64,000 nt of DNA from Longimicrobiaceae bacterium (GTDB lineage: Bacteria > Gemmatimonadota > Gemmatimonadetes > Longimicrobiales > Longimicrobiaceae). Where the stretch lies: assembly GCA_036375715.1 (NCBI GenBank), contig DASVBS010000053.1, positions 148,873 to 212,872 of the forward strand, given 5' to 3'. A model generated the notes under the pieces. That model did no database searches. It saw nothing but the letters and a program-made list of their open reading frames with translations, and was not told where the DNA came from. Position numbers and translations under genes: made by a program. This document shows, one piece after another, positions 9,059-27,057 of the stretch; the first letter of the stretch is position 1, and every line of letters begins with the position of its first letter.

Positions 9059-10042
9059 CTACAATGGTAACTCACGGGCGCGCCGCGGGGCGCCCATTGC
9101 GTAAAAAATTTGCGCAGCGGAGCGGGCATACGACAACGATTCCTGCTTCTTCCCCTGCACTTGGCAAAGCTTTGCTAGCTCAATAAGAGCTTCTGCCTGC
9201 AGCAGCTTGACACCAAGAGTTCTGCCGGCAGCAAGCGCTTCGCCAAGCAACTCCTGCGCGCCAGCCAAATCCCCCGAATGTCCAAGTATACATCCCATTG
9301 CACGTAGTCCTTCGGCTCGAAGGCGATTATTCTTTAACTTTTCAGCGCGGGCTAAAGCGATTCTGGCCGCTGAACGTGCGATCTTCGTTTCACCAGCATA
9401 TGAAAGCAACAACGCGCGCTCGAGCGCGGTCGCCGTTGCCTCCTCAGGGCTGCCGTGTTTCGCGAAATGTTCAGCGGCCGCGCTGAACTCACGTTCAGCT
9501 ACCTGTAGGCAATTGATCCGTCGGAAGCACATTCCAAGGTTATGTGCGCACGCTGCAACGGATGCTGCCTCGCCGAGCTGTTGAAAGGCCACCCGAGCGC
9601 GCTGTAGGGCCGTGATCGCTTGGACGGGATAACCGAGTATGTCCAATGCAATACCGTAGTTTTGCATTGAATATGCAACATATCTGTTGTCGCGGGCAAT
9701 CTCCGCATTCAGCTGGAGCTCGGCTAGCAATTCGATAGCCCCTCCAAGGTTGCCGAGTTCAATCTCTACAATTGCTTCAAGGTTCAGAATCCTGCGAAAC
9801 ACGCGATCGTTTATGGAAGGTATTGCGGCTCGGAGTTCGCGGACCATGTTTCTGGCTTCCAGCTCTTTACCGAGCATGTAGTATCCGTATGCCAGCAGGT
9901 ACCGCAGCGTATCGTCCGAATCGCGCACATCGAGAGGCGCTTCCTCGAGCACCTCGACTAGCTCCCGGAAGTTCTTGCGTGCTGCGAGGGACTCGGCCTT
10001 TTCGACCAGATCCATCCGCTCCATCACGCTCAGCATCCTCAC
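9059..10042 (-). CDS. TPR-repeat protein, compositionally atypical (about 55% GC)
   Basis: 327 aa of repeated 34-aa helical units. Start ATG overlaps the stop of the upstream EBP gene (ATGA). GC content is much lower than the flanks. Confidence 0.65.
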   Translation of the reverse strand: MRMLSVMERMDLVEKAESLAARKNFRELVEVLEEAPLDVRDSDDTLRYLLAYGYYMLGKELEARNMVRELRAAIPSINDRVFRRILNLEAIVEIELGNLGGAIELLAELQLNAEIARDNRYVAYSMQNYGIALDILGYPVQAITALQRARVAFQQLGEAASVAACAHNLGMCFRRINCLQVAEREFSAAAEHFAKHGSPEEATATALERALLLSYAGETKIARSAARIALARAEKLKNNRLRAEGLRAMGCILGHSGDLAGAQELLGEALAAGRTLGVKLLQAEALIELAKLCQVQGKKQESLSYARSAAQIFYAMGAPRRARELPL

Positions 10043-11376
10043 CCCTCCCCGTTGCGCAGCAGCACATACAGATGCCGTCTGCTGATTCCCAGCGCCTTCG
10101 CGGCCTCGCTCTTGTTCCCGCCGCAGTACTCGGTCATCGCGCGGGCGGCGGCGCTGGCGATGGTGTGCATGGGCGCCGGGAAAGGAATGAAGGCCGGAGC
10201 CCGGGCGGGCGCGGATCCGGGCCCCGTAGCGGCAAAGAGGTGCTCCCGCCGCAACTCACCCTCGCCCAGCAGCACCGCACGCTCGATGGCGTTGCGGAGC
10301 TCCCGTACATTGCCCGGCCAGGAATGGGCGAGGAGAATGCGCTTGATCTCAGGCGGAAGGTTCGGCCGGGGGAGCTGGTACTGCTCGGACAGACGATCGA
10401 GAAAGCTGGAGGCGAGCAGCAGGACGTCGTCGCCCCGCTCGCGCAGAGGGGGCAGGTGGATCGGCAAGACGCTGAGACGATAGTAGAGGTCCTGGCGGAA
10501 TTTCCCCTCGGTGACTGCGACGTACAGATCCACATGGGTGGCGGCGATGATGCGGATATCCACCTCCTGGTCACGCACACTGCCCAGACGCCGCACCCGC
10601 TTGTCCTCCAGGACCCGCAGCAGCTTCGCTTGCAGGTTGAGCGAGAGCTCGCCGACCTCGTCGAGAAAGAGCGTGCCGCCGTTCGCGGCCTCGAGCAGAC
10701 CCGGCTTGGGCGCCCGCGCGTCCGTGAAGGCACCCGCTTCGTAGCCGAAGAGCTCGGCCTCGAGCAGGTTCTCCGGGAGGGCGCTGCAGTTGATTTCGAT
10801 CAGCGGCTTTGCGGCCCGCGGACCGTTGTAGTGGATCGCTTTGGCCAGCAGTTCCTTGCCCGTCCCGGTCTCACCCGTGAGCAGGACGGTCGCCGAACCC
10901 CGCGGGATGACGCGCGTGGCCAGCTCCAGCGCCTCCAGCAGGGCCTGACTGCGGCCGATCATGCGTGAGAAGTCGTACCGCGCGCGCCCCTCCGCCGCCA
11001 TCAGCGCCGCGCGGGCATTGCCGACCACCGCATCCATGCGCTCGGAAATCCACCCGCGCATGGTTCCGAGGTCGTCGGGTAAGGCGAAGTAGTTGTCCGC
11101 GCCCGAGCGGAGCAGGGAGGCCACCAGCCGATAGTCCTTTTCGACGCCGACCACCGCGAGCGCCGGAGCCTCGCGCCGGGTCAGCGCGTCGATGACGGTG
11201 ATCGCGTCCTGCTCTCTGCCCCCCGCCGCGATCAACACGGCGCAAGCCTCGTCCAGATTTCTGAGTTCCGCCGGCGATCCCGCACACTGCAGGTCCGCAT
11301 CGAGTGATCGGGCGAGCTTGGGCCAGAGCTCGTAGAACGAGTCGTTGAGCGTGAGGACCGCGAGGGAAGGGGGCAT
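10039..11376 (-). CDS. sigma-54-dependent Fis-family transcriptional regulator (receiver + AAA+ + HTH)
   Basis: Carries GETGTGKE (Walker A), the GAFTDA sigma-54 contact motif, ESELFGHE-like ELFGYEAG, and a C-terminal Fis-type HTH. Start placed at MPPSL ahead of the receiver-like domain; the track ORF extends to 11682. Confidence 0.75.
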   Translation of the reverse strand: MPPSLAVLTLNDSFYELWPKLARSLDADLQCAGSPAELRNLDEACAVLIAAGGREQDAITVIDALTRREAPALAVVGVEKDYRLVASLLRSGADNYFALPDDLGTMRGWISERMDAVVGNARAALMAAEGRARYDFSRMIGRSQALLEALELATRVIPRGSATVLLTGETGTGKELLAKAIHYNGPRAAKPLIEINCSALPENLLEAELFGYEAGAFTDARAPKPGLLEAANGGTLFLDEVGELSLNLQAKLLRVLEDKRVRRLGSVRDQEVDIRIIAATHVDLYVAVTEGKFRQDLYYRLSVLPIHLPPLRERGDDVLLLASSFLDRLSEQYQLPRPNLPPEIKRILLAHSWPGNVRELRNAIERAVLLGEGELRREHLFAATGPGSAPARAPAFIPFPAPMHTIASAAARAMTEYCGGNKSEAAKALGISRRHLYVLLRNGEG

Positions 11377-11674
11377 GGCGGGTACCGAGCGGGAGGGGTG
11401 GCAATTCCCGGCGCAATATACGCGAGAGCTTGACCCGACGCCATGTTTTTGTTGTCCCGGTCTCAGGCGCGAATGGGGTGTGCTCCGGGACATCAGCCCT
11501 GTACCCGATAGCCACACCTCGTAGCAGCCCTTCCTCCAACCAGAGTGCAGCAAGTTCTTCTGCGGTAAGGAGTTTACACCTTCCCTCCGGCCGCTACGTG
11601 CAGGAACAGGCGTTGCCTCGGTTGATCTCGGCGCCCACCCCGGGCGCGCCGAGCTCCAACTCGAGGGTGACCCC

Positions 11675-12520
11675 ATGAGCACTTCCTCCCTCCGCTTCCC
11701 CTTTCCGGTCGTCGGCCCGGCACGCCCTCAACTCGGTCACCCGCCAGCCAGCGGCGAAGAAGGGGCACACTTTCTGATCCGTCCACCGTATCGAAAGCTG
11801 GAACTGCATCCCTCGTTGCAGGCGCTCGAGCGACACGCGCACGCCCCCGGTGTGATCGCGGGGGTTCGCATCCGCTCGGGCACCGATTGGTCCAGGGTAC
11901 AACCCCTGGTCGCCCGCCTGCGTGCAAGCCTGCTCGACGCGGCCATCGTGCTCCTGCTCCCGGGCGGCTCGGGGGTGGATCTGATGCTCTCCGCGCGGGC
12001 GGCGCGCGGCGGCGTTCGCGCCGTGCTGGTGGACGAGGAAGGGATGCAGGAGCGCCTGCGTACGGCGCTCACTTGCCGCGATTCGCTGGCGGAGGACGTG
12101 GTCGAGTGGCTCATGCTTCGTCGCTTGCGGCTCTCGCCGACCGTCGCGAGCCTGCTCCGGGAGATCTTCAGCCACGCGCCGAACCATCCCGACCTGACCA
12201 CCCTCTTATCAGGCGTGGGGATGGCCGAGAGCAGCGCGCGCTTCCGACTGCACAAGCGCCTGCTCCCCACCCCGAGCCGCTGGTTCCAGGTGGCCAGGGC
12301 CCTCCACTGCGCGCTGCGTGTACAGGCTGAACCTCAAACCTCGCTGCTGCACATCGCGCACGAGTTCGGCTTCGCCGACCATTCCGCCCTGAGTCAGCTG
12401 ATCTTCCGTGCCTTCCAGGTGCGCCCGGGCGCCGTCCGGGGCACCCTCGGTTGGGAGTGGCTGATGCACCGCTGGATCCGAACGATTCCCGAGGGCGCGC
12501 ACACCACCCGCGCTCCGTGA
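11675..12520 (+). CDS. AraC-family HTH transcriptional regulator
   Basis: C-terminal tandem AraC-type HTH (…IAHEFGFADHSALSQLIFRAFQVRPG…). Confidence 0.55.
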   Translation: MSTSSLRFPFPVVGPARPQLGHPPASGEEGAHFLIRPPYRKLELHPSLQALERHAHAPGVIAGVRIRSGTDWSRVQPLVARLRASLLDAAIVLLLPGGSGVDLMLSARAARGGVRAVLVDEEGMQERLRTALTCRDSLAEDVVEWLMLRRLRLSPTVASLLREIFSHAPNHPDLTTLLSGVGMAESSARFRLHKRLLPTPSRWFQVARALHCALRVQAEPQTSLLHIAHEFGFADHSALSQLIFRAFQVRPGAVRGTLGWEWLMHRWIRTIPEGAHTTRAP

Positions 12521-12633
12521 CCTGTACGCTTCTTTCTGACGCTGACGGAATCGCCCTGTCTCTGCCCTCCGGTAGATTAGGGAGCGCACGGCCGTGCACC
12601 GCTTCGTTCCTCATCTTCTACCGTGGAGGTGCC

Positions 12634-12828
12634 ATGCACAGCCTCGCAGCGTCGCGGGCGGTCACCATCGAGCTCGCCCCGTGGGGGCACGATCTGACTG
12701 CGGAGGAGCTGGACACGATCCGTGGAGGCGTGATCGATCCGGTGGGTATTGCGGTGCTGGTCTTTGCCGGGGGCGTCGTGGTCGGGATCCTCGACCGGAT
12801 CCTCTTCGGCGGGTGCAAGTGCCGCTGA
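12634..12828 (+). CDS. double-glycine-leader peptide A (bacteriocin/RiPP-like precursor)
   Basis: GGAGGT RBS. Leader …LTAEELDTIRGG, then a 32-aa hydrophobic Gly-rich core ending GGCKCR. Confidence 0.6.
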   Translation: MHSLAASRAVTIELAPWGHDLTAEELDTIRGGVIDPVGIAVLVFAGGVVVGILDRILFGGCKCR

Positions 12829-12862
12829 GCGCTACCTCAACCTGCGTGAAAGGAGGCCCGTG

Positions 12863-13030
12863 ATGTTGGACGTCCTGCCCGCCGGAACGATTCCGCTCGA
12901 GGCGGAGGAGCTTGACCAGGTAGTCGGCGGAGTTTCCATCTGGCGCATCATTGCCGGAGCGGCGGTCGTCGGGTACACGGTCGGCCGGTGGGTTGCCTGC
13001 GCGGTCGAATGTCTCGTCTTCGACGCCTGA
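12863..13030 (+). CDS. double-glycine-leader peptide B (bacteriocin/RiPP-like precursor)
   Basis: AAGGAGG RBS. Leader MLDVLPAGTIPLEAEELDQVVGG, then a 32-aa core with GxxxG-type motifs, one Tyr, and C-x3-C near the C-terminus. Confidence 0.6.
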   Translation: MLDVLPAGTIPLEAEELDQVVGGVSIWRIIAGAAVVGYTVGRWVACAVECLVFDA

Positions 13031-13094
13031 TACGCATCGAGCCGGAGACGGGTTCGCCCGTCTCCGGCGATCGCCGGTAAACAGGGAGTCTGTC

Positions 13095-13793
13095 ATGATC
13101 GAGCAACCCGATGCCACGGGGCGCCAACGACTGAGCCGGAGCTGGCGACGCGGTTCGATCCTCGTCGGGCTCGGTTCGGCGGCGGGCGTGGCGCTGCCCT
13201 ATGTCGTCGCCGCGCCCTCCGACACCCTGAGGATCCTTGCTCTCGTCGGTGGCCTGGTCGGCGTGGTGTGTCTGTGGCTGCTGGCGGATGCCTTCCGGCC
13301 ATGGATCACCGACGACGCGGGGCAAGAAGAGCGGGATCACGCGGAGCGTTCGGTGCTCCGGGCCTACCGTTTCCTGGCGGCCCTGGCCGTGGCTTTCGGC
13401 GCGTACCTGGTGCTCTGGGACCCTCCGCTGGATGCGCTGGGAGCGAGGCAGGTCCGGACGCTGATTTGGGTATGCATCGGGCTCGTCCTGCTTCTCCCTC
13501 CCCTGATGTCGGCGTGGGCGGATCGGCCGGAGGAGGAGGGGTGGGAAGAAGTGACCCTGGCCGAGCTGCTGCACGGGCGTTTCCGCGGAGTGTCCGGGCG
13601 CCTGCACCGGGCGGCCCTGGTGGTGCTGTTAGCCGCTGTCCCTCTGCTGGTGATCGGCCCACGACCGCCGTCGGGGACGCGGGAGCTCTGGTGGCTGGGT
13701 GCTCTGGCGGTATGTGTCACCGGCCTGGTCCTTGGCCTCTGGGTACTCGCGCGGACGCTGCTCCGCGATCGTGGCGCGGACGGGAACGGCTGA
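13095..13793 (+). CDS. polytopic membrane protein (candidate immunity/accessory protein)
   Basis: AGGGAG RBS; about six hydrophobic helices. Sits between the precursor peptides and the export genes. Confidence 0.5.
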   Translation: MIEQPDATGRQRLSRSWRRGSILVGLGSAAGVALPYVVAAPSDTLRILALVGGLVGVVCLWLLADAFRPWITDDAGQEERDHAERSVLRAYRFLAALAVAFGAYLVLWDPPLDALGARQVRTLIWVCIGLVLLLPPLMSAWADRPEEEGWEEVTLAELLHGRFRGVSGRLHRAALVVLLAAVPLLVIGPRPPSGTRELWWLGALAVCVTGLVLGLWVLARTLLRDRGADGNG

Positions 13794-13806
13794 TCGAGAG
13801 GTTGCT

Positions 13807-15000
13807 GTGCTGCAGGACCCATCGAGTATGCAAGACCTGGAGCCGTTCGACCCGGACCGGCTGGACCTCTACCTCCGGCGCTGGGGAGACGGGGGCGGCG
13901 CCATCTACGGCGCCATCCTCGGGCTGATCGTCCTGGTGATCGCCGCGATTCCGCTGATCGAGGTGCCAGTGTCCCTGCGGGCGGCGGGCATACTGCGGAG
14001 TCGGGCGGAGACGCAGACACTCGTGGCGCCGGTCGGAGGATGGATTCGCTGGGTCCGCCGGGCGGAGGACCGCAAGGTCGGGGCGGGTGACACGCTGCTC
14101 GTGCTGGATCGGCCGGAGCTCGCCCAGCGCGCCGCGGTCCTGGCGGCCCGCCGGGAGGAGCTCCATCGCGAGCTGCGGGACTTGGAGGCCTTGGTCGCGG
14201 GGGCCCGCGGGTCGACGCGCACGCCTGCGCTCACGAGTCCGCGCTATGCTGCGGAGCGCCGTCACTTCGATGACGAGTCAGCGCTCCTGCGGGGCCGGCT
14301 CGAAGCGGCGATACGGGAGCGAGATCGGGTCGAAGCGCTGGCCTCACTCGGGTTGGCACCGGCCGCGGAGGCAGAAGCAGTCGCGGCCCGAGTTCGTGCC
14401 CTGCGAGACGAGTCGGAGCTATTGCGGTCGGAGGCGCTCTCCCGTTGGCAGGAAGCGCTGGCTGCCGCCCGCGAGGCGCTGCGCTCGCTGGAGCTGGAGG
14501 AGTTGGAGCTGAGGCAGGAGCGGGGCCGTCTGGTGATCGTTGCTCCGTCCTCGGGTGACCTCGATACGCTGCACGCGTTCGCGACCGGGAGCTACGTCGC
14601 GCCCGGAGAGCCGGTCGCCCGGCTCACCCCCGTCTCGGCGCTGATCGCCGAGCTGTACCTCGATCCGGGCCAGCTAGGATCCGTCCGGCCAGGGTCCCCC
14701 GCCCGCCTCCAGGTAACCAGCCTTGCCTCCGGCCGGGGGGGCAGCCTGCGGGGCCGGGTTTACGACATCGCACCTCAGGCGGTGCAGATCGGTGGCCAGG
14801 TGATGGGGCGGTTGCGGGTACGGCCGGAAGCGGAAGCGTGGGAGATCTCCGACCTGCTGGGCCCGCTCCGCCGCGGCATGCTGGTCACTGCTCGACTGCC
14901 GGTGGGACGCCGATCGCTCTGGAGCCTCCTGCGCGGGCGGGTGGAGGCGCTACCCGGGGTACCCACCGCCGCCTCCGTTCCACTGCGAAGCGCCGGTTGA
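13807..15000 (+). CDS. HlyD-family membrane fusion protein (bacteriocin secretion accessory)
   Basis: N-terminal TM, long coiled-coil, then a beta-barrel C-terminal region. GTG at 13807 has a GAGAGG RBS; an alternative ATG lies at 13828. Confidence 0.7.
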   Translation: MLQDPSSMQDLEPFDPDRLDLYLRRWGDGGGAIYGAILGLIVLVIAAIPLIEVPVSLRAAGILRSRAETQTLVAPVGGWIRWVRRAEDRKVGAGDTLLVLDRPELAQRAAVLAARREELHRELRDLEALVAGARGSTRTPALTSPRYAAERRHFDDESALLRGRLEAAIRERDRVEALASLGLAPAAEAEAVAARVRALRDESELLRSEALSRWQEALAAAREALRSLELEELELRQERGRLVIVAPSSGDLDTLHAFATGSYVAPGEPVARLTPVSALIAELYLDPGQLGSVRPGSPARLQVTSLASGRGGSLRGRVYDIAPQAVQIGGQVMGRLRVRPEAEAWEISDLLGPLRRGMLVTARLPVGRRSLWSLLRGRVEALPGVPTAASVPLRSAG

Positions 15001-15003
15001 AGG

Positions 15004-17187
15004 ATGCTCACCCGGCGGATTCCGCGAGTCCGTCAGCATGACGTGACGGACTGTGGGGCGGCGTGCATCTGCTCCGTTGCCCGGTACTTCGGAGTCGACG
15101 CACCGATTGCACGCATCCGCCAGTTGGCCGGTACCGACCAGGAAGGAACCAGCCTCCGGGGGATGATCCGGGCAGCCGAAGCGCTCGGCGTGGCCGCCCG
15201 TGGAGTGCGGGCCGCGGCGCACGCCCTTCCCTCGGTCCCTCTCCCGTGCATCGCCCACCTGCGCGACAAGCGCGGCGCGATGCATTTCGTGGTGGTCTAC
15301 CGGGTGACCGACCGCGTGATTGTGGTGATGGACCCCGCGGATGGCGCGGTGCATCGGCTCCGACGAGCGGCCTTCGCCGAACGATGGACCGGGATCCTGC
15401 TTCTTCTCGCCAGAGAACGGACGGCCCCTCCGGTAGCGACCGACAAGTCCGGTACCCTGAGCAGGTTCTGGAGACTGGCCTCTCCCCACCAGCGAGCGAT
15501 GGTGGAGGCCATGCTCGGCGCCATCGCCTATACCATCCTCGGCCTCGCCACCGCCGTGTTCGTGCAGACGGTCGTCGACCTGGTGATCCCGGAGGGTAAC
15601 CGCAGGCTGCTCGATCTCCTGACCCTGGCGATGATCATCCTGGTGGCCGCGCAGGTCTACATCCGCACCGTCAAGGATTCGCTCGTTCTGCAAACCGGAC
15701 AGAAGCTCGACGCGGCTCTGCTCCAGGGCTACTTCGAGCACCTGCTCACCCTGCCGCAGCGCTTCTACGACACCATGCGGGTCGGCGAGATCGTTTCACG
15801 TCTCAATGACGCGGTGAAGGTCCGGCATTTCCTGAACGAGGTCGCCGTCGATCTGCTGGTGAACACGCTGGTGATCGTCTCCTCCTTCGCTCTGATGCTG
15901 GTCTACTCGTGGCGCCTCGCGCTGCTGGTGGGTCTTTCCGTGCCGCTTTACATCGTAATCTACGCCGCATCCAACCGGCTGAACCGGCGCAACCAGCGTC
16001 GCACGATGGAGGCGGCGGCCGACTTCGAGGCGCACGTGGTCGAAACCGTTGGCGCCGTGCGGACCATTCGAGCGCTCGGTCTCGAGCGGCACTCCGCACT
16101 CCAGGCGGAACGGCGCCTGGTACGCTTGCTCCGCCCGATTTACGCGGTAGGAAGGACCGCGGTGCTTTCCGGCAGTGTGGGAGAGTTCGTCACCCGCATC
16201 AGCACGATTGCTCTGCTCTGGTTCGGTACCCGACTGGCCCTGCAGGATTCGCTGACGGCCGGCGAGCTCATGTCCTTCTACACGCTCAACGGACACCTCA
16301 CCATGCCGGTTCTTGCCGTGATCGCCGCCAACCGGCAGGTGCAGGATGCTCTCATCGCCGCCGAGCGACTCTTCGACATTCTGGACCTCGAGCGGGAGGT
16401 GGACACGGGTGTCGTGACCCTCGGGAGGGGCAGTCTGGGGGACATCCGTTTCAAGGACGTGCACTTCCGCTATGGCAGCCGACCCCCCCTGTTTCGCGGT
16501 CTGGACCTTTCCATTCCGCAGGGGTGCATTACGGCGGTCGTGGGGGAGAGTGGCTCGGGCAAGAGCACGCTCGCCGCCCTCCTCCAGCGGATTCATCTGC
16601 CGGAGTCGGGCAGGATCCTCTTCGGGGAAGTGGACATACGCTACATCCGGCGTGAGTCGCTCCAGCAGCGGGTCGCCGTGGTCCCGCAGGAGGTGGTGCT
16701 CTTCAGCGGGACCCTTCTGGACAACCTGCTTCCCGGCGAGACGCATCCGGACCTGCGGAGGCTGCAGGAAGTGCTCGGCAGGGTGGGGCTGCGAGACTTA
16801 GAGGAGAACCTGCCGGGCGGCCTCTTCACGCCGGTGGGAGAGCGCGGATACGCACTTTCCGGCGGTCAGCGTCAGCGAGTGGCGATCGCGCGTGCCCTCT
16901 ACCGCAATCCCGAGATACTCGTCCTGGACGAAGCCACTTCGGGTCTCGACGCGGAATCCGAGGCGCTGGTCCACGAAACGATGCGCCGTCTGGCCGCCGA
17001 GGGAGGGACGGTGGTTCTGATCACTCACCGGCTCACGAGCGCGAGGACGGCGGAGCACATCCTCGTGATTGCCAGGGGCAGCCTCGTGGAGGAGGGCTCG
17101 CACCAGACTCTCCTCGCCCACGACGGGCTCTATCGGCGGCTGTGGCTGGTACAGACCGGCGGAACAACCCGGTATGCGATGCCCTGA
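15004..17187 (+). CDS. peptidase C39-domain ABC transporter (PCAT, double-glycine peptide exporter)
   Basis: N-terminal C39 domain with catalytic Cys (VTDCGAAC), six TM helices, and an NBD with Walker A GESGSGKST and signature LSGGQRQR. Confidence 0.85.
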   Translation: MLTRRIPRVRQHDVTDCGAACICSVARYFGVDAPIARIRQLAGTDQEGTSLRGMIRAAEALGVAARGVRAAAHALPSVPLPCIAHLRDKRGAMHFVVVYRVTDRVIVVMDPADGAVHRLRRAAFAERWTGILLLLARERTAPPVATDKSGTLSRFWRLASPHQRAMVEAMLGAIAYTILGLATAVFVQTVVDLVIPEGNRRLLDLLTLAMIILVAAQVYIRTVKDSLVLQTGQKLDAALLQGYFEHLLTLPQRFYDTMRVGEIVSRLNDAVKVRHFLNEVAVDLLVNTLVIVSSFALMLVYSWRLALLVGLSVPLYIVIYAASNRLNRRNQRRTMEAAADFEAHVVETVGAVRTIRALGLERHSALQAERRLVRLLRPIYAVGRTAVLSGSVGEFVTRISTIALLWFGTRLALQDSLTAGELMSFYTLNGHLTMPVLAVIAANRQVQDALIAAERLFDILDLEREVDTGVVTLGRGSLGDIRFKDVHFRYGSRPPLFRGLDLSIPQGCITAVVGESGSGKSTLAALLQRIHLPESGRILFGEVDIRYIRRESLQQRVAVVPQEVVLFSGTLLDNLLPGETHPDLRRLQEVLGRVGLRDLEENLPGGLFTPVGERGYALSGGQRQRVAIARALYRNPEILVLDEATSGLDAESEALVHETMRRLAAEGGTVVLITHRLTSARTAEHILVIARGSLVEEGSHQTLLAHDGLYRRLWLVQTGGTTRYAMP

Positions 17188-17289
17188 AACCGACCGGCCA
17201 TGGTTGGTCCGGGCGGTCAACCCCGACAATCAGTACCGCGACCCACCATTGGACGGCTACCTCGCACCGCTACTCGTTGACGAGCAGCC

Positions 17290-18030
17290 CTAAACTTCCT
17301 CTCGTGGAAACGGATCCACCTCCACGCCCATCTTGTGCAGCAGGCAGACGGAGAACTCCGACAGGCCTCGCCCCACCTCCTCCTGGATGTCGAAGATCTC
17401 GTCGGGCTGGAGGTGATCCCAGAAGTTCCCTTCCTGGCCCGTCTTGATGTCGCGGCCACTGCGCAGCCGGTCCGCGCTCTCCACGGCCGCGGCGACCAGA
17501 ACGGGATCAGGATCGTGATTCAGGAAGCGAACAACGCGCGCAAGCGTCTCGGCGGAATCGGCGGAGAGGTCTCGATAAGAAAGGAGCAGCGCATCGCGAT
17601 GGGTGAGCAGCTTCGGAGCCCAGCGGTTGAAGTACTCGATCCAGGCTGGCAATCCTAGCCGGGGGTGACGGATGAACTCCCGCATCGACCCGATGTACTC
17701 CCCCTTCTGGTGCGCGAGGTGATGGTAGGCGCTCACCATCACGTCGTAGGCATTGCGCGCCAGAAAGACCACCGGATATCCCCGGTGCAACTCCCAACTG
17801 TACGGCTGGTGACACACCGCCACGAGCGGGACCTCCACGCGACCTCGGAAGCCATAGGCGGGGTAGCCGCGCACGGGATCCTCGTGGTGGTCCGGGACGA
17901 CCGTAAAGACCTCTCGCGGCGTCACCTCCAGCCCCAGCTGGTGGTGCGCCGCGAGATAATGGGCGATCAGGTATCGCAGCCACCGTCCGCCGCTACGCGG
18001 GTGCGAACAGATCAGCGCGTCCGCGGACAT
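17290..18030 (-). CDS. Sulfotransfer_1-family sulfotransferase
   Basis: 5'-PSB-like SHPRSGGRWL and an RNAYDVMVSAYHH block matching the SULT RNPKDVAVSYYHF motif. Confidence 0.65.
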   Translation of the reverse strand: MSADALICSHPRSGGRWLRYLIAHYLAAHHQLGLEVTPREVFTVVPDHHEDPVRGYPAYGFRGRVEVPLVAVCHQPYSWELHRGYPVVFLARNAYDVMVSAYHHLAHQKGEYIGSMREFIRHPRLGLPAWIEYFNRWAPKLLTHRDALLLSYRDLSADSAETLARVVRFLNHDPDPVLVAAAVESADRLRSGRDIKTGQEGNFWDHLQPDEIFDIQEEVGRGLSEFSVCLLHKMGVEVDPFPREEV

Positions 18031-18060
18031 ATCGGCGACTGCATGGAACTGTAGGGAAGC

Positions 18061-18525
18061 TCAGACGGTCGCGGGCCCGGCGGAGCTCGCGGACAGGTCT
18101 GACGTGCAGTGTCCGCAGCGGGTCGCGTTCAAGGGAATCCGCATGAGGCAGTGCGGGCAGTCCTTCTCCGTGGGCGCCGGAGGTGCCGCTTCCTCGGTCG
18201 TGCGGATCCTGTTGTATGCCTGAACGATCAGGAATATTGCCCAGCCGACGATCAGGAAGCTGATGACACTGTTCAGGAAAAGCCCGTAGTTGATCGTCGC
18301 TGCACCTGCCTCCTGCGCCTCCGCCAGGGAGGCGTACTCTCCCCCTGAGAGGTTGATGTAGAGGTTGCTGAAATCCACCCCTCCGGTGAGCACTCCGATC
18401 GGGGGCATCAGCACGTCGTTCACGAAGCTGTTCACCACCGAAGTGAACGCGGCTCCGATCACGATACCTACAGCCAGATCGATGACATTCCCGCGGGCAA
18501 TAAACTTCCTGAACTCCTGGAGCAT
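18061..18525 (-). CDS. mscL: large-conductance mechanosensitive channel
   Basis: MLQEFRKFIARGNVIDLAVGIVIGAAF… is the canonical MscL N-terminus. Confidence 0.85.
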   Translation of the reverse strand: MLQEFRKFIARGNVIDLAVGIVIGAAFTSVVNSFVNDVLMPPIGVLTGGVDFSNLYINLSGGEYASLAEAQEAGAATINYGLFLNSVISFLIVGWAIFLIVQAYNRIRTTEEAAPPAPTEKDCPHCLMRIPLNATRCGHCTSDLSASSAGPATV

Positions 18526-18606
18526 CAGGACCTCCGGGTGAGAGGGGAGGTGCGCGCCTCACGCGACGCGCCCGCACAGCCAGCGGCAACCCCCAGGCGC
18601 ACGCCT

Positions 18607-26724: not shown

Positions 26725-27057
26725 TTCGATCCCCCTGAAAAGGTGGCGCACGGCCGTGCAGCGGCGAGCAGAAGACGTGCCATTCCACCGACTTAGCACG
26801 CTTCCGAAGAAGTGGCTCTGGGGATCCGTGAGCGCATATCGGCTTAGCCCCGCCGCGTTGTGCATCCGTGTGCCCGGCTGTATTTTGCGCCCGTCGACGC
26901 TCGTGCGCCACTCCGCGCACCGCTGCCCGCACTTCATCGGAGTCCGCTTGCCCGCCGTCGTACCCGGTTCACACCAACCGCCATTCCGCGCTGCGGTCGC
27001 CTGCCCGCCACGGGGCGAGCCCATCCACGGCACCGCCTTGTCGCGTTTCGCGCCGCA

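What the first reader, a model, noticed from the sequence alone, without database searches (positions are those of the whole stretch)
12586..17187. Two tandem double-glycine-leader peptides with 32-aa hydrophobic Cys-pair cores, plus membrane protein, HlyD and C39-ABC exporter: a two-peptide bacteriocin-like system in a high-GC genome
The sequence shows two small ORFs with good RBSs. Peptide A's leader ends LTAEELDTIRGG and peptide B's ends LEAEELDQVVGG, both matching the LSxxELxxIxGG double-glycine consensus. Each leader is followed by exactly 32 residues. Peptide A's core is VIDPVGIAVLVFAGGVVVGILDRILFGGCKCR and peptide B's is VSIWRIIAGAAVVGYTVGRWVACAVECLVFDA. Both cores are Gly/Ala/Val-rich with GxxxG-like spacing and a Cys pair close to the C-terminus. 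By established knowledge, GG leaders are removed by the C39 domain of PCAT exporters working with HlyD-family partners. Exactly those two genes follow the peptides. A polytopic membrane protein lies between the peptides and the exporters, where immunity genes usually sit. The inference is that the peptides act as a class IIb-like two-peptide membrane-active toxin, a quorum signal, or a disulfide-containing microcin. The high GC content and caa3/PVC-type gene complement show this is not a Firmicute, and peptides like this would be missed by standard annotation. No recognisable class I, II or III RiPP maturase is present, so the Cys pair would form a disulfide rather than a lanthionine.
Basis: partly seen in the sequence, partly recalled or inferred. 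Interest (0 to 1): 0.75.

Follow-up and report, generated by a model that had tools for sequence, protein, structure and literature searches.

The report
Two-peptide double-glycine export cluster, Longimicrobiaceae
A soil-type Gemmatimonadota bacterium carries a real operon for two small hydrophobic peptides that a protease-transporter cuts and exports; it has the layout of a two-peptide bacteriocin, but the peptides belong to a small, previously unnamed family with conserved cysteine motifs.

Summary
pepA (12634-12828, 64 aa) and pepB (12863-13030, 55 aa) are real genes under purifying selection (dN/dS 0.10 and 0.05). Both have canonical double-glycine leaders, each followed by exactly 32 residues. 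Downstream lie a 6-TM membrane protein, an HlyD-type adaptor and a PCAT with an intact C39 catalytic set (Q11/C17/H94/D110).

The organism is a Longimicrobiaceae MAG (Gemmatimonadota). NCBI already calls both peptides "hypothetical protein".

An exhaustive search found a small family of about nine variants at 33-95% identity. The order is always AraC-type regulator, A, B, membrane protein, variable adaptor, PCAT. Family A ends in DRILFGGCxC[RN]. Family B carries G[FY]xxG[RQ]W[LVI]xCxxxC. Both keep a [GS]xxxG motif.

Also conserved are an invariant palindrome (GCACGGCCGTGC) upstream of pepA and a covarying hairpin after pepB. The cluster evolves much faster than its housekeeping flanks, and the membrane protein evolves fastest.

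Best reading: a class IIb / class II-microcin-like two-peptide exported system. This is a new peptide family of a known kind. Toxicity, the immunity role and the cysteine chemistry are untested. An intrachain disulfide is doubtful for the CxC of peptide A. The adjacent sulfotransferase is probably unrelated.

The parts
11675..12520 (+). AraC/XylS-type regulator gene (281 aa, C-terminal HTH_18). It sits immediately upstream of the A peptide gene in every lineage where the upstream sequence was recovered.
   Evidence: Pfam HTH_18 E 7.2e-8. Same position in L001, L074, L080, L090/91, L086, L093 and L094. It diverges at the cluster's rate (52-57% identity against 82-86% for flanking IspH/MscL).
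12586..12597 (.). Perfect 12-bp palindrome GCACGGCCGTGC, 37 nt upstream of the pepA ATG. Candidate operator.
   Evidence: Invariant in an otherwise diverged intergenic region. Present exactly once, upstream of the A gene, in all 27 cluster-bearing loci and in none of 67 unrelated PCAT loci.
12634..12828 (+). pepA: 64-aa precursor. Leader 12634-12729 (32 aa, ends GG); core 12730-12825 (32 aa, ends DRILFGGCKCR).
   Evidence: dN/dS 0.096. Family of nine variants with L21, E25, L26, G31, G32, G51, D54, L57, F58, G59, C61 and C63 invariant. Pfam Bacteriocin_IIc 20.0 bits, below the gathering score of 27.1.
12863..13030 (+). pepB: 55-aa precursor. Leader 12863-12931 (23 aa, ends GG); core 12932-13027 (32 aa, G37xxxG41, C46xxxC50).
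   Evidence: dN/dS 0.053. B-like ORF follows every A-like gene. Invariant P6, G8, L12, E16, G22, G23, W27, G37, G41, W43, C46 and C50.
13041..13068 (+). GC-rich stem-loop (12-bp stem, UUCG loop), 10 nt after the pepB stop codon, with no U-tract. Candidate partial terminator or mRNA-stabilising element between the peptide genes and the machinery genes.
   Evidence: Fold of 13025-13100 gives -35.9 kcal/mol, z -3.7. A 12-14 bp hairpin occurs at the same place in seven lineages with different sequence. Four of 13 pairs show compensatory double changes.
13095..13793 (+). 232-aa membrane protein with six predicted TM segments and no known family. Candidate immunity or export-accessory protein.
   Evidence: Hydropathy. 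No Pfam, NCBIfam or PADLOC family. The only homologues are in the same cluster of related lineages. It is the fastest-evolving full-length gene of the cluster (77% / 31% / 32% identity). Conserved LxxxWRR and W-x-x-x-D-x-x-R-x-W motifs (alignment).
13828..15000 (+). HlyD-type membrane-fusion (periplasmic adaptor) protein, 390 aa, with an N-terminal TM anchor. An upstream GTG start is possible.
   Evidence: HlyD_3 E 1.3e-12, HlyD_D23, TIGR01843 97 bits. TM segment at residues 26-44. The gene is variable: 251-aa truncated form in L091 (HlyD_3 29.5 bits) and absent in L080-L083.
15004..17187 (+). Peptidase-containing ABC transporter (PCAT), 727 aa: C39 peptidase, six-helix TMD and NBD.
   Evidence: Pfam Peptidase_C39 1.3e-34, ABC_membrane 1.5e-46, ABC_tran 6e-31. 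TIGR01193 452.6 bits against a cutoff of 523.85. Full-length alignment to PCAT1 4RY2, E 9e-128, with Q11, C17, H94 and D110 aligned to the catalytic motifs.
17290..18030 (-). Sulfotransferase (246 aa), convergent neighbour. Listed because a RaxST-like role was considered; probably not part of the system.
   Evidence: Sulfotransfer_1 E 3.7e-11. Best PDB matches are cytosolic small-molecule SULTs. Its divergence (72-75%) lies closer to the flanking MscL/IspH than to the cluster genes. No conserved Tyr in either peptide family.

Best explanation
This is a chromosomal operon for a pair of ribosomal peptides with double-glycine leaders, processed and exported by a dedicated PCAT.

**Steps shown or inferred from family knowledge**
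1. pepA and pepB are translated from strong Shine-Dalgarno sites. The operon lies downstream of an AraC-type regulator gene and an invariant palindrome that is probably an operator.
2. A conserved hairpin after pepB probably attenuates read-through or stabilises the short peptide transcript. That would put the peptides in excess over the machinery.
3. The C39 domain of the PCAT (C17/H94/D110, oxyanion Q11) cuts after G32 of A and G23 of B. The ABC core then translocates the two 32-residue cores.
4. In this lineage the HlyD-type adaptor would couple the PCAT to an outer-membrane channel encoded elsewhere.

**Steps that are inference**
5. Each mature peptide is essentially one TM-length hydrophobic helix with a conserved [GS]xxxG face. 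I infer that A and B pair through these faces in a membrane, as class IIb two-peptide bacteriocins do, and act as a membrane-active antagonistic agent.
6. The conserved C-terminal CxC (A) and CxxxC (B) would be oxidised once outside the cytoplasm, within a chain or between chains.
7. The fast-evolving 6-TM protein would serve as the producer's immunity factor or as an export/assembly accessory.

Gene reality, leader features, protease competence and the conserved two-peptide architecture are shown. Cleavage and export follow from family knowledge. Heterodimer formation, toxicity, immunity and Cys chemistry are inference.
For: - **Leaders and ORFs:**
- **Purifying selection on both peptides:**
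- **PCAT:** domains and catalytic residues are intact, with full-length similarity to PCAT1.
- **Adaptor:**
- **Sub-threshold bacteriocin matches:** both peptides hit Pfam Bacteriocin_IIc and TIGR03949 (class IIb lactobin A/cerein 7B) below threshold.
- **Conserved pairing:** the A/B pair and gene order hold across about nine variants at 33-95% identity.
- **Shared motif:** [GS]xxxG is conserved in both families, and the A and B profiles align from the leader through that motif (hhalign 95%, E 3.8e-8).
- **Evolutionary rate:** cluster genes diverge two to three times faster than the flanks, and the membrane protein fastest. This fits antagonism/immunity loci.
- **Hairpin:** conserved with compensatory changes.
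- **No maturase nearby:**
- **Literature:** class IIb systems have two adjacent GG-leader peptide genes, GxxxG motifs, an immunity gene and an ABC transporter plus accessory protein (PMC2850506). Class II microcin immunity proteins are adjacent small inner-membrane proteins (PMC12219008).
Against: - There is no functional data of any kind.
- No family member reaches the curated thresholds of Bacteriocin_IIc or TIGR03949.
- The cores are nearly uncharged (+1 and 0) and extremely hydrophobic (GRAVY 1.5 and 1.4). From my own knowledge, class IIb peptides are usually cationic.
- Such hydrophobic peptides would have to cross a target outer membrane if the targets are diderms.
- Every recovered locus has the same downstream neighbours and none shows a recognisable mobile-element gene. 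The upstream genes differ in L080-83. Classical bacteriocin islands are more patchy.
- The adaptor is truncated or absent in two lineages. There, export may stop in the periplasm.
- No TolC-like gene lies in the cluster.
- In bacteroidetocin clusters the adjacent polytopic protein is not an immunity protein (PMC6671954).
Confidence: 0.6

Rival explanations
1. The peptides act in the producer's own envelope, not as a weapon. After leader removal and translocation, the two TM-length peptides would stay in or re-enter the producer's inner membrane. There they would form a conserved heteromer, perhaps with the 6-TM protein. The four periplasm-facing cysteines (CxC plus CxxxC) would give a redox-active or metal-binding site.
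For: - The cores are neutral and TM-like.
- The Cys motifs and adjacent residues are invariant while the rest of the core drifts.
- The locus keeps the same downstream neighbours across lineages whose IspH is about 83% identical.
- The outer-membrane adaptor is truncated or lost in two lineages while A, B, the 6-TM protein and the PCAT are all kept.
Against: - From my own knowledge, I know of no PCAT used to install resident membrane subunits.
- The cluster and the 6-TM protein evolve much faster than housekeeping neighbours. That is unusual for a core envelope function.
- A frameshifted PCAT allele exists in two samples, which suggests the system is dispensable.
Confidence: 0.17
2. The peptides are secreted signals. 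They would act as a pheromone or quorum pair sensed by the producer population, with the AraC-type regulator and/or the nearby TPR protein plus sigma-54 activator in the response pathway.
For: - GG-leader/PCAT export is also used for pheromones. ComC gives weak Pfam hits in 3 of 7 B peptides.
- A dedicated regulator and an invariant operator-like palindrome accompany the cluster.
- A second copy of the palindrome lies in front of another regulator-like gene.
Against: - No histidine kinase is adjacent.
- The sigma-54 activator and TPR genes are not conserved with the cluster (absent upstream in L080-83).
- From my own knowledge, 32-residue, highly hydrophobic, TM-length peptides are unlike known diffusible signals.
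- Two co-conserved peptides with GxxxG motifs fit a helix-helix pair better than a ligand.
Confidence: 0.12
3. This is a RaxX-like sulfated RiPP. The convergent sulfotransferase would modify one of the peptides before PCAT/adaptor export, as RaxST-RaxA-RaxB do for RaxX.
For: - The gene content superficially matches raxX-raxSTAB: a GG-leader peptide, a sulfotransferase, an adaptor and a PCAT (PMC6637879).
- The sulfotransferase is adjacent in all lineages that have enough sequence.
Against: - Neither family has a conserved Tyr. The only core Tyr (pepB Y38) is Phe in all other lineages, and no Ser or Thr is conserved either.
- The enzyme resembles cytosolic small-molecule SULTs; no tyrosylprotein sulfotransferase appears among its PDB matches.
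- It lies on the opposite strand.
- It diverges far less than the cluster genes (72-75% against 31-57%), closer to the flanking MscL/IspH (82-86%).
Confidence: 0.03

Closest known systems
Class IIb (two-peptide) bacteriocins of Gram-positive bacteria (lactococcin G, plantaricin EF/JK; lactobin A/cerein 7B family TIGR03949; Pfam Bacteriocin_IIc)
   Same: - Two different peptide genes lie side by side in one operon.
- Both have double-glycine leaders, and the mature peptides are about 30 residues.
- GxxxG-type motifs occur in both peptides.
- A membrane-protein gene, a dedicated C39-ABC transporter and an accessory protein lie next to them (PMC2850506).
   Different: - The producer is a diderm Gemmatimonadota with an HlyD-type adaptor.
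- Scores are below the curated thresholds of both models.
- The cores are near-neutral and more hydrophobic.
- The C-terminal CxC and CxxxC motifs are invariant.
- The candidate immunity protein is a 6-TM, 232-aa orphan.
- Activity is untested.
Class II microcins of Gram-negative bacteria (MccV/CvaC with CvaA-CvaB-TolC and Cvi)
   Same: - The producer is Gram-negative.
- A GG-leader precursor is cleaved and exported by a PCAT plus a membrane-fusion protein.
- An adjacent inner-membrane protein is the usual immunity factor.
- Cysteines that form a disulfide occur in MccV and the related EN43 (PMC12219008).
   Different: - Class II microcins are described as too long for chemical synthesis (PMC12219008); from my own knowledge they are single peptides of about 60-90 residues that use outer-membrane receptors.
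- Here there are two co-conserved 32-residue TM-like peptides.
- No sequence similarity was detected.
- The adaptor is degenerate or lost in sister lineages.
- No TolC gene lies in the cluster.
Bacteroidetocins (proposed class IIf) of Bacteroidota
   Same: - The phylum is related, and the nearest PCAT homologues are from Bacteroidota (41-46% identity).
- The cluster has a polytopic TM protein, a GG-leader Cys-containing peptide and a PCAT, without an adaptor. This matches lineage L080-83 (PMC6671954).
   Different: - A bacteroidetocin is a single 42-residue peptide with four Cys and a 15-residue leader.
- Its cluster has a dedicated thiol oxidoreductase, which is absent here.
- The membrane-protein family here has no detectable homologue in the 67 unrelated PCAT loci searched, most of them from Bacteroidota.
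- The bacteroidetocin TM protein is needed for toxin activity and gives no immunity.
RaxX-raxSTAB sulfated-peptide system of Xanthomonas
   Same: A GG-leader peptide, a PCAT, a periplasmic adaptor and a sulfotransferase lie in one neighbourhood (PMC6637879).
   Different: - There is no conserved Tyr to sulfate.
- The sulfotransferase is of a different type, lies on the opposite strand and evolves far more slowly than the cluster, closer to the flanking genes.

Membership tests
Double-glycine-leader peptide / PCAT substrate | Leader ending in GG, with a conserved Glu at -8 and hydrophobic residues at -4, -7 and -12 | tested here: met
   - A has I-4, L-7, E-8 and L-12.
- B has V-4, L-7, E-8 and L-12.
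- L-12, E-8, L-7, G-2 and G-1 are invariant in the A family. L-12, E-8, G-2 and G-1 are invariant in B, where -7 is Leu or Met.
- In most other A members the -4 residue is Thr.
Double-glycine-leader peptide / PCAT substrate | Cognate ABC transporter with a catalytically competent C39 peptidase domain encoded nearby | tested here: met
   Peptidase_C39 E 1.3e-34. Q11, C17, H94 and D110 align with the PCAT1 catalytic motifs. The gene lies in the same operon in all lineages.
Double-glycine-leader peptide / PCAT substrate | Cleavage after GG and export demonstrated | not testable with these tools
   Needs expression and mass spectrometry.
Class IIb two-peptide bacteriocin | Two different peptide genes adjacent in one operon, each with a 15-30-residue GG leader | tested here: met
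   A and B are 34 nt apart. The leaders are 32 residues (slightly long) and 23 residues. The pairing is conserved in every lineage where downstream sequence exists.
Class IIb two-peptide bacteriocin | GxxxG (or AxxxA/SxxxS) motif in both peptides | tested here: met
   A has [GS]47xxxG51, with G51 invariant. B has G37xxxG41, both invariant.
Class IIb two-peptide bacteriocin | Match to curated family models (Pfam PF10439 Bacteriocin_IIc; NCBIfam TIGR03949) | tested here: not met
   Scores are 20.0 and 19.4 bits against the gathering score of 27.1, and 17.6 and 17.7 against the cutoff of 21.5. No family member passes.
Class IIb two-peptide bacteriocin | Immunity gene in the same operon | tested here: inconclusive
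   A 6-TM orphan protein follows pepB and evolves fastest. It has no homology to any known immunity family.
Class IIb two-peptide bacteriocin | [quoted passage not shown] | not testable with these tools
Class II microcin | Gram-negative producer; GG-leader precursor; PCAT plus membrane-fusion protein plus TolC export | tested here: inconclusive
   The producer is Longimicrobiaceae, and the PCAT and adaptor are present. No TolC-like gene lies among the cluster's neighbours. The adaptor is truncated or absent in sister lineages.
Class II microcin | Adjacent small (216 aa or less) inner-membrane immunity protein | tested here: inconclusive
   The adjacent membrane protein is 232 aa with 6 TM segments. 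The criterion comes from PMC12219008. The function is untested.
Bacteroidetocin (class IIf) | Four-gene cluster with a thiol oxidoreductase, and a single four-Cys peptide | tested here: not met
   No thiol oxidoreductase lies in the operon. There are two peptides with two Cys each.
RaxX-type sulfated RiPP | Conserved Tyr substrate site and a TPST-like sulfotransferase co-inherited with the cluster | tested here: not met
   There is no conserved Tyr; Y38 of B is Phe elsewhere. The best structural relatives of the enzyme are cytosolic SULTs. It diverges far less than the cluster genes, closer to the flanks.
Lanthipeptide / sactipeptide / other Cys-modified RiPP | LanB/C/M/KC, radical-SAM or YcaO maturase in the cluster | tested here: not met
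   None is present among genes within about 10 kb on either side in the window's lineage or relatives (precomputed Pfam).

The most novel reading that the evidence does not exclude
The A and B peptides are not independent disulfide-stapled toxins. They would be an obligate heterodimer whose invariant CxC (A) and CxxxC (B) motifs join the two TM helices, either by two interchain disulfides or through a shared four-Cys metal site. The pair would act in the producer's own envelope together with the 6-TM protein. That would be a PCAT-installed small-membrane-peptide complex rather than a bacteriocin.
Probability: 0.12. Interest if true: 0.65.

Novelty: new member of a known kind. Interest (0 to 1): 0.4.

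Why it matters
- It would extend two-peptide, GG-leader, PCAT-exported systems to Gemmatimonadota. My literature searches returned no paper describing a bacteriocin or GG-leader peptide from this phylum.
- It defines two unnamed peptide families with sharply conserved C-terminal Cys motifs, plus an orphan 6-TM partner. These could seed new HMMs for genome mining.
- The 32-residue peptides are short enough for chemical synthesis, so activity and A+B synergy can be tested directly.
- The invariant palindrome and the covarying hairpin give ready handles on regulation in a lineage where promoters and regulators are essentially unstudied.

Tried and rejected
- **Word-index protein searches** with pepA, pepB and the membrane protein found only the window's own cluster and a sister lineage (95% identical peptides, 77% identical membrane protein). 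Only the exhaustive phmmer search revealed the family.
- **GTDB genome scan** with the PCAT found no close relative. The best hits were 41-46% identical Bacteroidota PCATs with unrelated GG peptides.
- **JGI metagenome scan** with the A-family alignment added only 3 loci.
- **AlphaFold2 model** of the membrane protein from a two-sequence alignment gave pLDDT 49. It was unusable, so no fold search was run.
- **Promoter scans** found no sigma-70 consensus promoter in the region and no sigma-54 promoter match in the AraC-pepA intergenic region.
- **Rfam** gave no hit in 11000-18600.
- **PADLOC** gave nothing meaningful.
- **Membrane-family HMM** found no homologue in 67 unrelated PCAT loci.
- **A lipobox reading of LFGGC** was rejected. 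Charged D and R lie within the preceding six residues, and the leader is acidic and not Sec-type.
- **A second C39 site at LFGG|C** was rejected. It lacks the -7 and -8 determinants.
- **CPBP/Abi-type immunity protease** was rejected. There is no Pfam hit, and the EE..R stretch does not fit the motif.
- **DsbB/VKOR-like oxidase role** for the 6-TM protein was rejected. It has no CxxC motif and only one Cys is conserved in most lineages.

Full report
**1. The observation**

- pepA is ATG 12634 to 12828 (64 aa): MHSLAASRAVTIELAPWGHDLTAEELDTIRGG | VIDPVGIAVLVFAGGVVVGILDRILFGGCKCR.
- pepB is ATG 12863 to 13030 (55 aa): MLDVLPAGTIPLEAEELDQVVGG | VSIWRIIAGAAVVGYTVGRWVACAVECLVFDA.
- GGAGG and AGGAGG lie 4-6 nt before the start codons.

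A strict GG-leader regular expression, run over the six-frame translation of the whole 64-kb window, hits only these two places. Each hit is followed by exactly 32 residues before the stop codon. A looser version gives 4 hits, against a mean of 0.44 in codon-block shuffles.

The downstream genes are as follows.
- A 232-aa protein with six predicted TM segments (13095-13793). It matches no Pfam, NCBIfam or PADLOC family.
- An HlyD-type adaptor (13828-15000; HlyD_3 E 1.3e-12).
- A PCAT (15004-17187) with Peptidase_C39, ABC_membrane and ABC_tran domains. It aligns over its full length to PCAT1 (4RY2, E 9e-128). Q11, C17, H94 and D110 sit in the conserved catalytic motifs.

**2. Are the peptide ORFs real genes?**

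Exact-sequence look-ups place the locus in a Longimicrobiaceae MAG (Gemmatimonadota). NCBI already lists both peptides as hypothetical proteins HEX6925827.1 and HEX6925828.1. Gene callers for Logan, JGI and ENA contigs also call them.

Against a sister lineage (L001, synonymous divergence 0.27-0.60), pepA has 11.5 synonymous and 3.5 non-synonymous differences (dN/dS 0.096). pepB has 15 and 3 (dN/dS 0.053). For comparison, dN/dS is 0.24 for the membrane protein, 0.22 for the adaptor and 0.13 for the PCAT. Both are therefore translated genes under purifying selection.

**3. A family, not a singleton**

Word-index searches found only the 95%-identical sister lineage. The exhaustive phmmer search of 1.84 billion representatives with pepA gave nine hits at E < 1e-3. 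Seven of them are true relatives of 62-81 residues at 33-69% identity.

Their contigs show the same order: AraC-type HTH_18 regulator, A peptide, B peptide, membrane protein of about 233 aa, adaptor (variable), then PCAT. These are followed on the other strand by the sulfotransferase, MscL and IspH. A JGI metagenome scan added only three loci, so the family is rare and, as far as seen, confined to this clade.

- In the A family the invariant residues are L21, E25, L26, G31 and G32 in the leader, and G51, D54, L57, F58, G59, C61 and C63 in the core. The consensus ending is DRILFGGCxC[RN].
- In the B family the invariant residues are P6, G8, L12, E16, G22, G23, W27, G37, G41, W43, C46 and C50. 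The consensus is xIWxxIxxAAxxG[FY]xxG[RQ]W[LVI]xCxxxC.
- Both families keep a [GS]xxxG motif.
- A profile-profile comparison aligns A and B from the leader through that motif (95% probability, E 3.8e-8). They are probably old paralogues that differ in their C-terminal Cys modules.
- No member reaches the gathering score of Pfam Bacteriocin_IIc or the cutoff of TIGR03949.

**4. Conserved non-coding elements**

*Palindrome.* A perfect 12-bp palindrome, GCACGGCCGTGC (12586-12597), lies 37 nt before the pepA ATG. It is invariant in an otherwise diverged intergenic region. It occurs exactly once, at that place, in all 27 cluster-bearing loci and in none of the 67 unrelated PCAT loci. The only regulator always adjacent is the AraC-type protein. 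It is therefore the leading candidate binder, by inference.

*Hairpin.* Ten nucleotides after the pepB stop codon there is a 12-bp GC stem with a UUCG loop (13041-13068). The fold of 13025-13100 gives -35.9 kcal/mol with z -3.7. Every lineage has a 12-14-bp hairpin at this position with a different sequence. Four of the 13 pairs show compensatory double changes. There is no U-tract. I read it as a partial terminator or a stabiliser that raises peptide mRNA over machinery mRNA. This is inference.

No sigma-70 consensus promoter was found in the region, and no sigma-54 promoter match lies between the AraC-type gene and pepA. Rfam has no hit.

**5. Evolutionary behaviour**

Percentage identity of each window gene to its counterpart in the two more distant lineages:

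| Gene | vs L091 | vs L080 |
|---|---|---|
| IspH | 82 | 83 |
| MscL | 84 | 86 |
| Sulfotransferase | 75 | 72 |
| PCAT | 55 | 54 |
| AraC-type regulator | 57 | 52 |
| pepA | 50 | 55 |
| pepB | 49 | 54 |
| Membrane protein | 31 | 32 |
| Adaptor | 20 (truncated to 251 aa, still HlyD_3) | absent |

The cluster is thus a fast-evolving module embedded in a conserved chromosomal context. Its membrane protein is the fastest full-length component. That pattern fits antagonism/immunity systems.

Erosion of the adaptor argues that outer-membrane passage is not always required, or that a partner is encoded elsewhere.

Two samples of the sister lineage carry a 1-nt deletion that frameshifts the PCAT in an otherwise identical sequence. 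This suggests the system is dispensable in some populations.

**6. Mechanism**

*Shown.* The genes are real, the leaders are canonical, the protease is competent, and the A+B pairing with helix-packing motifs is conserved.

*From established knowledge of PCATs.* The C39 domain cuts after GG and the ABC core exports the cargo. In diderms this uses a membrane-fusion protein and a TolC-type channel.

*Inferred.* Each 32-residue core is essentially one TM helix (GRAVY 1.5 and 1.4, net charge +1 and 0). The two would associate through their [GS]xxxG faces as class IIb bacteriocins do (PMC2850506) and perturb a membrane.

*The 6-TM protein.* It may be an immunity factor, since class II microcin immunity proteins are adjacent small inner-membrane proteins (PMC12219008). 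Alternatively it may be an accessory needed for production, like the 5-TM protein of bacteroidetocin clusters, which is required for toxin activity but does not protect (PMC6671954). Its family HMM finds nothing in the 67 unrelated PCAT loci, most of them from Bacteroidota.

**7. Rivals**

- *An envelope-resident peptide complex.* This is favoured by the neutral TM-like cores, the invariant Cys modules, the conserved downstream context and the loss of the adaptor. The fast evolution and the frameshift allele argue against it.
- *A signalling pair.* It is supported only by the dedicated regulator and palindrome and by weak ComC hits. No kinase is adjacent, and the sigma-54 activator and TPR genes are not conserved with the cluster.
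- *A RaxX-like sulfated peptide* (PMC6637879). I rejected this. There is no conserved Tyr, since Y38 of pepB is Phe elsewhere. The enzyme resembles cytosolic SULTs. It diverges far less than the cluster genes, closer to the flanks.

**8. Comparison and novelty**

GG-leader peptides with PCAT and HlyD partners are well known in diderm bacteria. Examples are class II microcins (PMC12219008), cyanobacterial clusters (PMC3140520) and bacteroidetocins (PMC6671954).

What is new here:
- two unnamed, co-inherited peptide families with CxC and CxxxC modules, in Gemmatimonadota;
- an orphan 6-TM partner;
- a variable adaptor;
- two conserved cis elements.

I class it as a new member of a known kind, of moderate interest. 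Its function is unproven.

Noticed in passing
window 26748-26759 (with 26768-26782 and the minus-strand gene starting near 26727): A second exact copy of the palindrome GCACGGCCGTGC. On the minus strand it lies between a sigma-54-like -24/-12 match (TGGCACGTCTTCTGC, 1 mismatch) and the start of a roughly 157-aa protein with an HTH-like N-terminus, two CxxC pairs and a C-terminal TM segment. This gene may be co-regulated with the peptide operon.
   Followed up: partly
L003 6664-8864 and L004 (same position); corresponds to window about 16310: In two metagenome samples of the sister lineage the PCAT gene carries a single-base deletion (GGGCACC to GGGCAC) that splits it in two. The sequence is otherwise identical to L001. 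This is either a real loss-of-function allele or a recurrent assembly error.
   Followed up: partly
L080-L083 (no adaptor gene between the membrane protein and PCAT genes) and L091/L092 3775-4530 (251-aa adaptor): The HlyD-type adaptor is truncated in one related lineage and absent in another. The peptides, the membrane protein and the PCAT are all retained in both.
   Followed up: yes
window 10039-11376 (-) and 9059-10042 (-): A sigma-54 enhancer-binding protein lies next to a 326-aa TPR protein, divergent from the AraC-type gene. By eye its N-terminal receiver-like region seems to lack the usual phospho-acceptor Asp (AVLIAAGG). The pair is present in the window, L001 and L090 lineages but not upstream of the cluster in L080.
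   Followed up: no
window 11602-11616 (+): A weak sigma-54-like match (AGGAACAGGCGTTGC, 2 mismatches) about 60 nt upstream of the AraC-type gene start. The number of such matches in the window is within chance expectation.
   Followed up: no
window 17290-18030 (-): A cytosolic-SULT-like sulfotransferase is conserved next to MscL and IspH in all related lineages. Its substrate is unknown and it is probably unrelated to the peptides.
   Followed up: partly
L020 2688, L022 12591, L059 10066 and other Bacteroidota PCAT loci: Unrelated short GG-leader peptides with hydrophobic cores lie next to the closest PCAT homologues. An example is MENLVELKKEELKEIEGG|FLWGIFISSALVALIATLMTPE. Small TM-like GG peptides therefore appear common cargo in the FCB group.
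   Followed up: no
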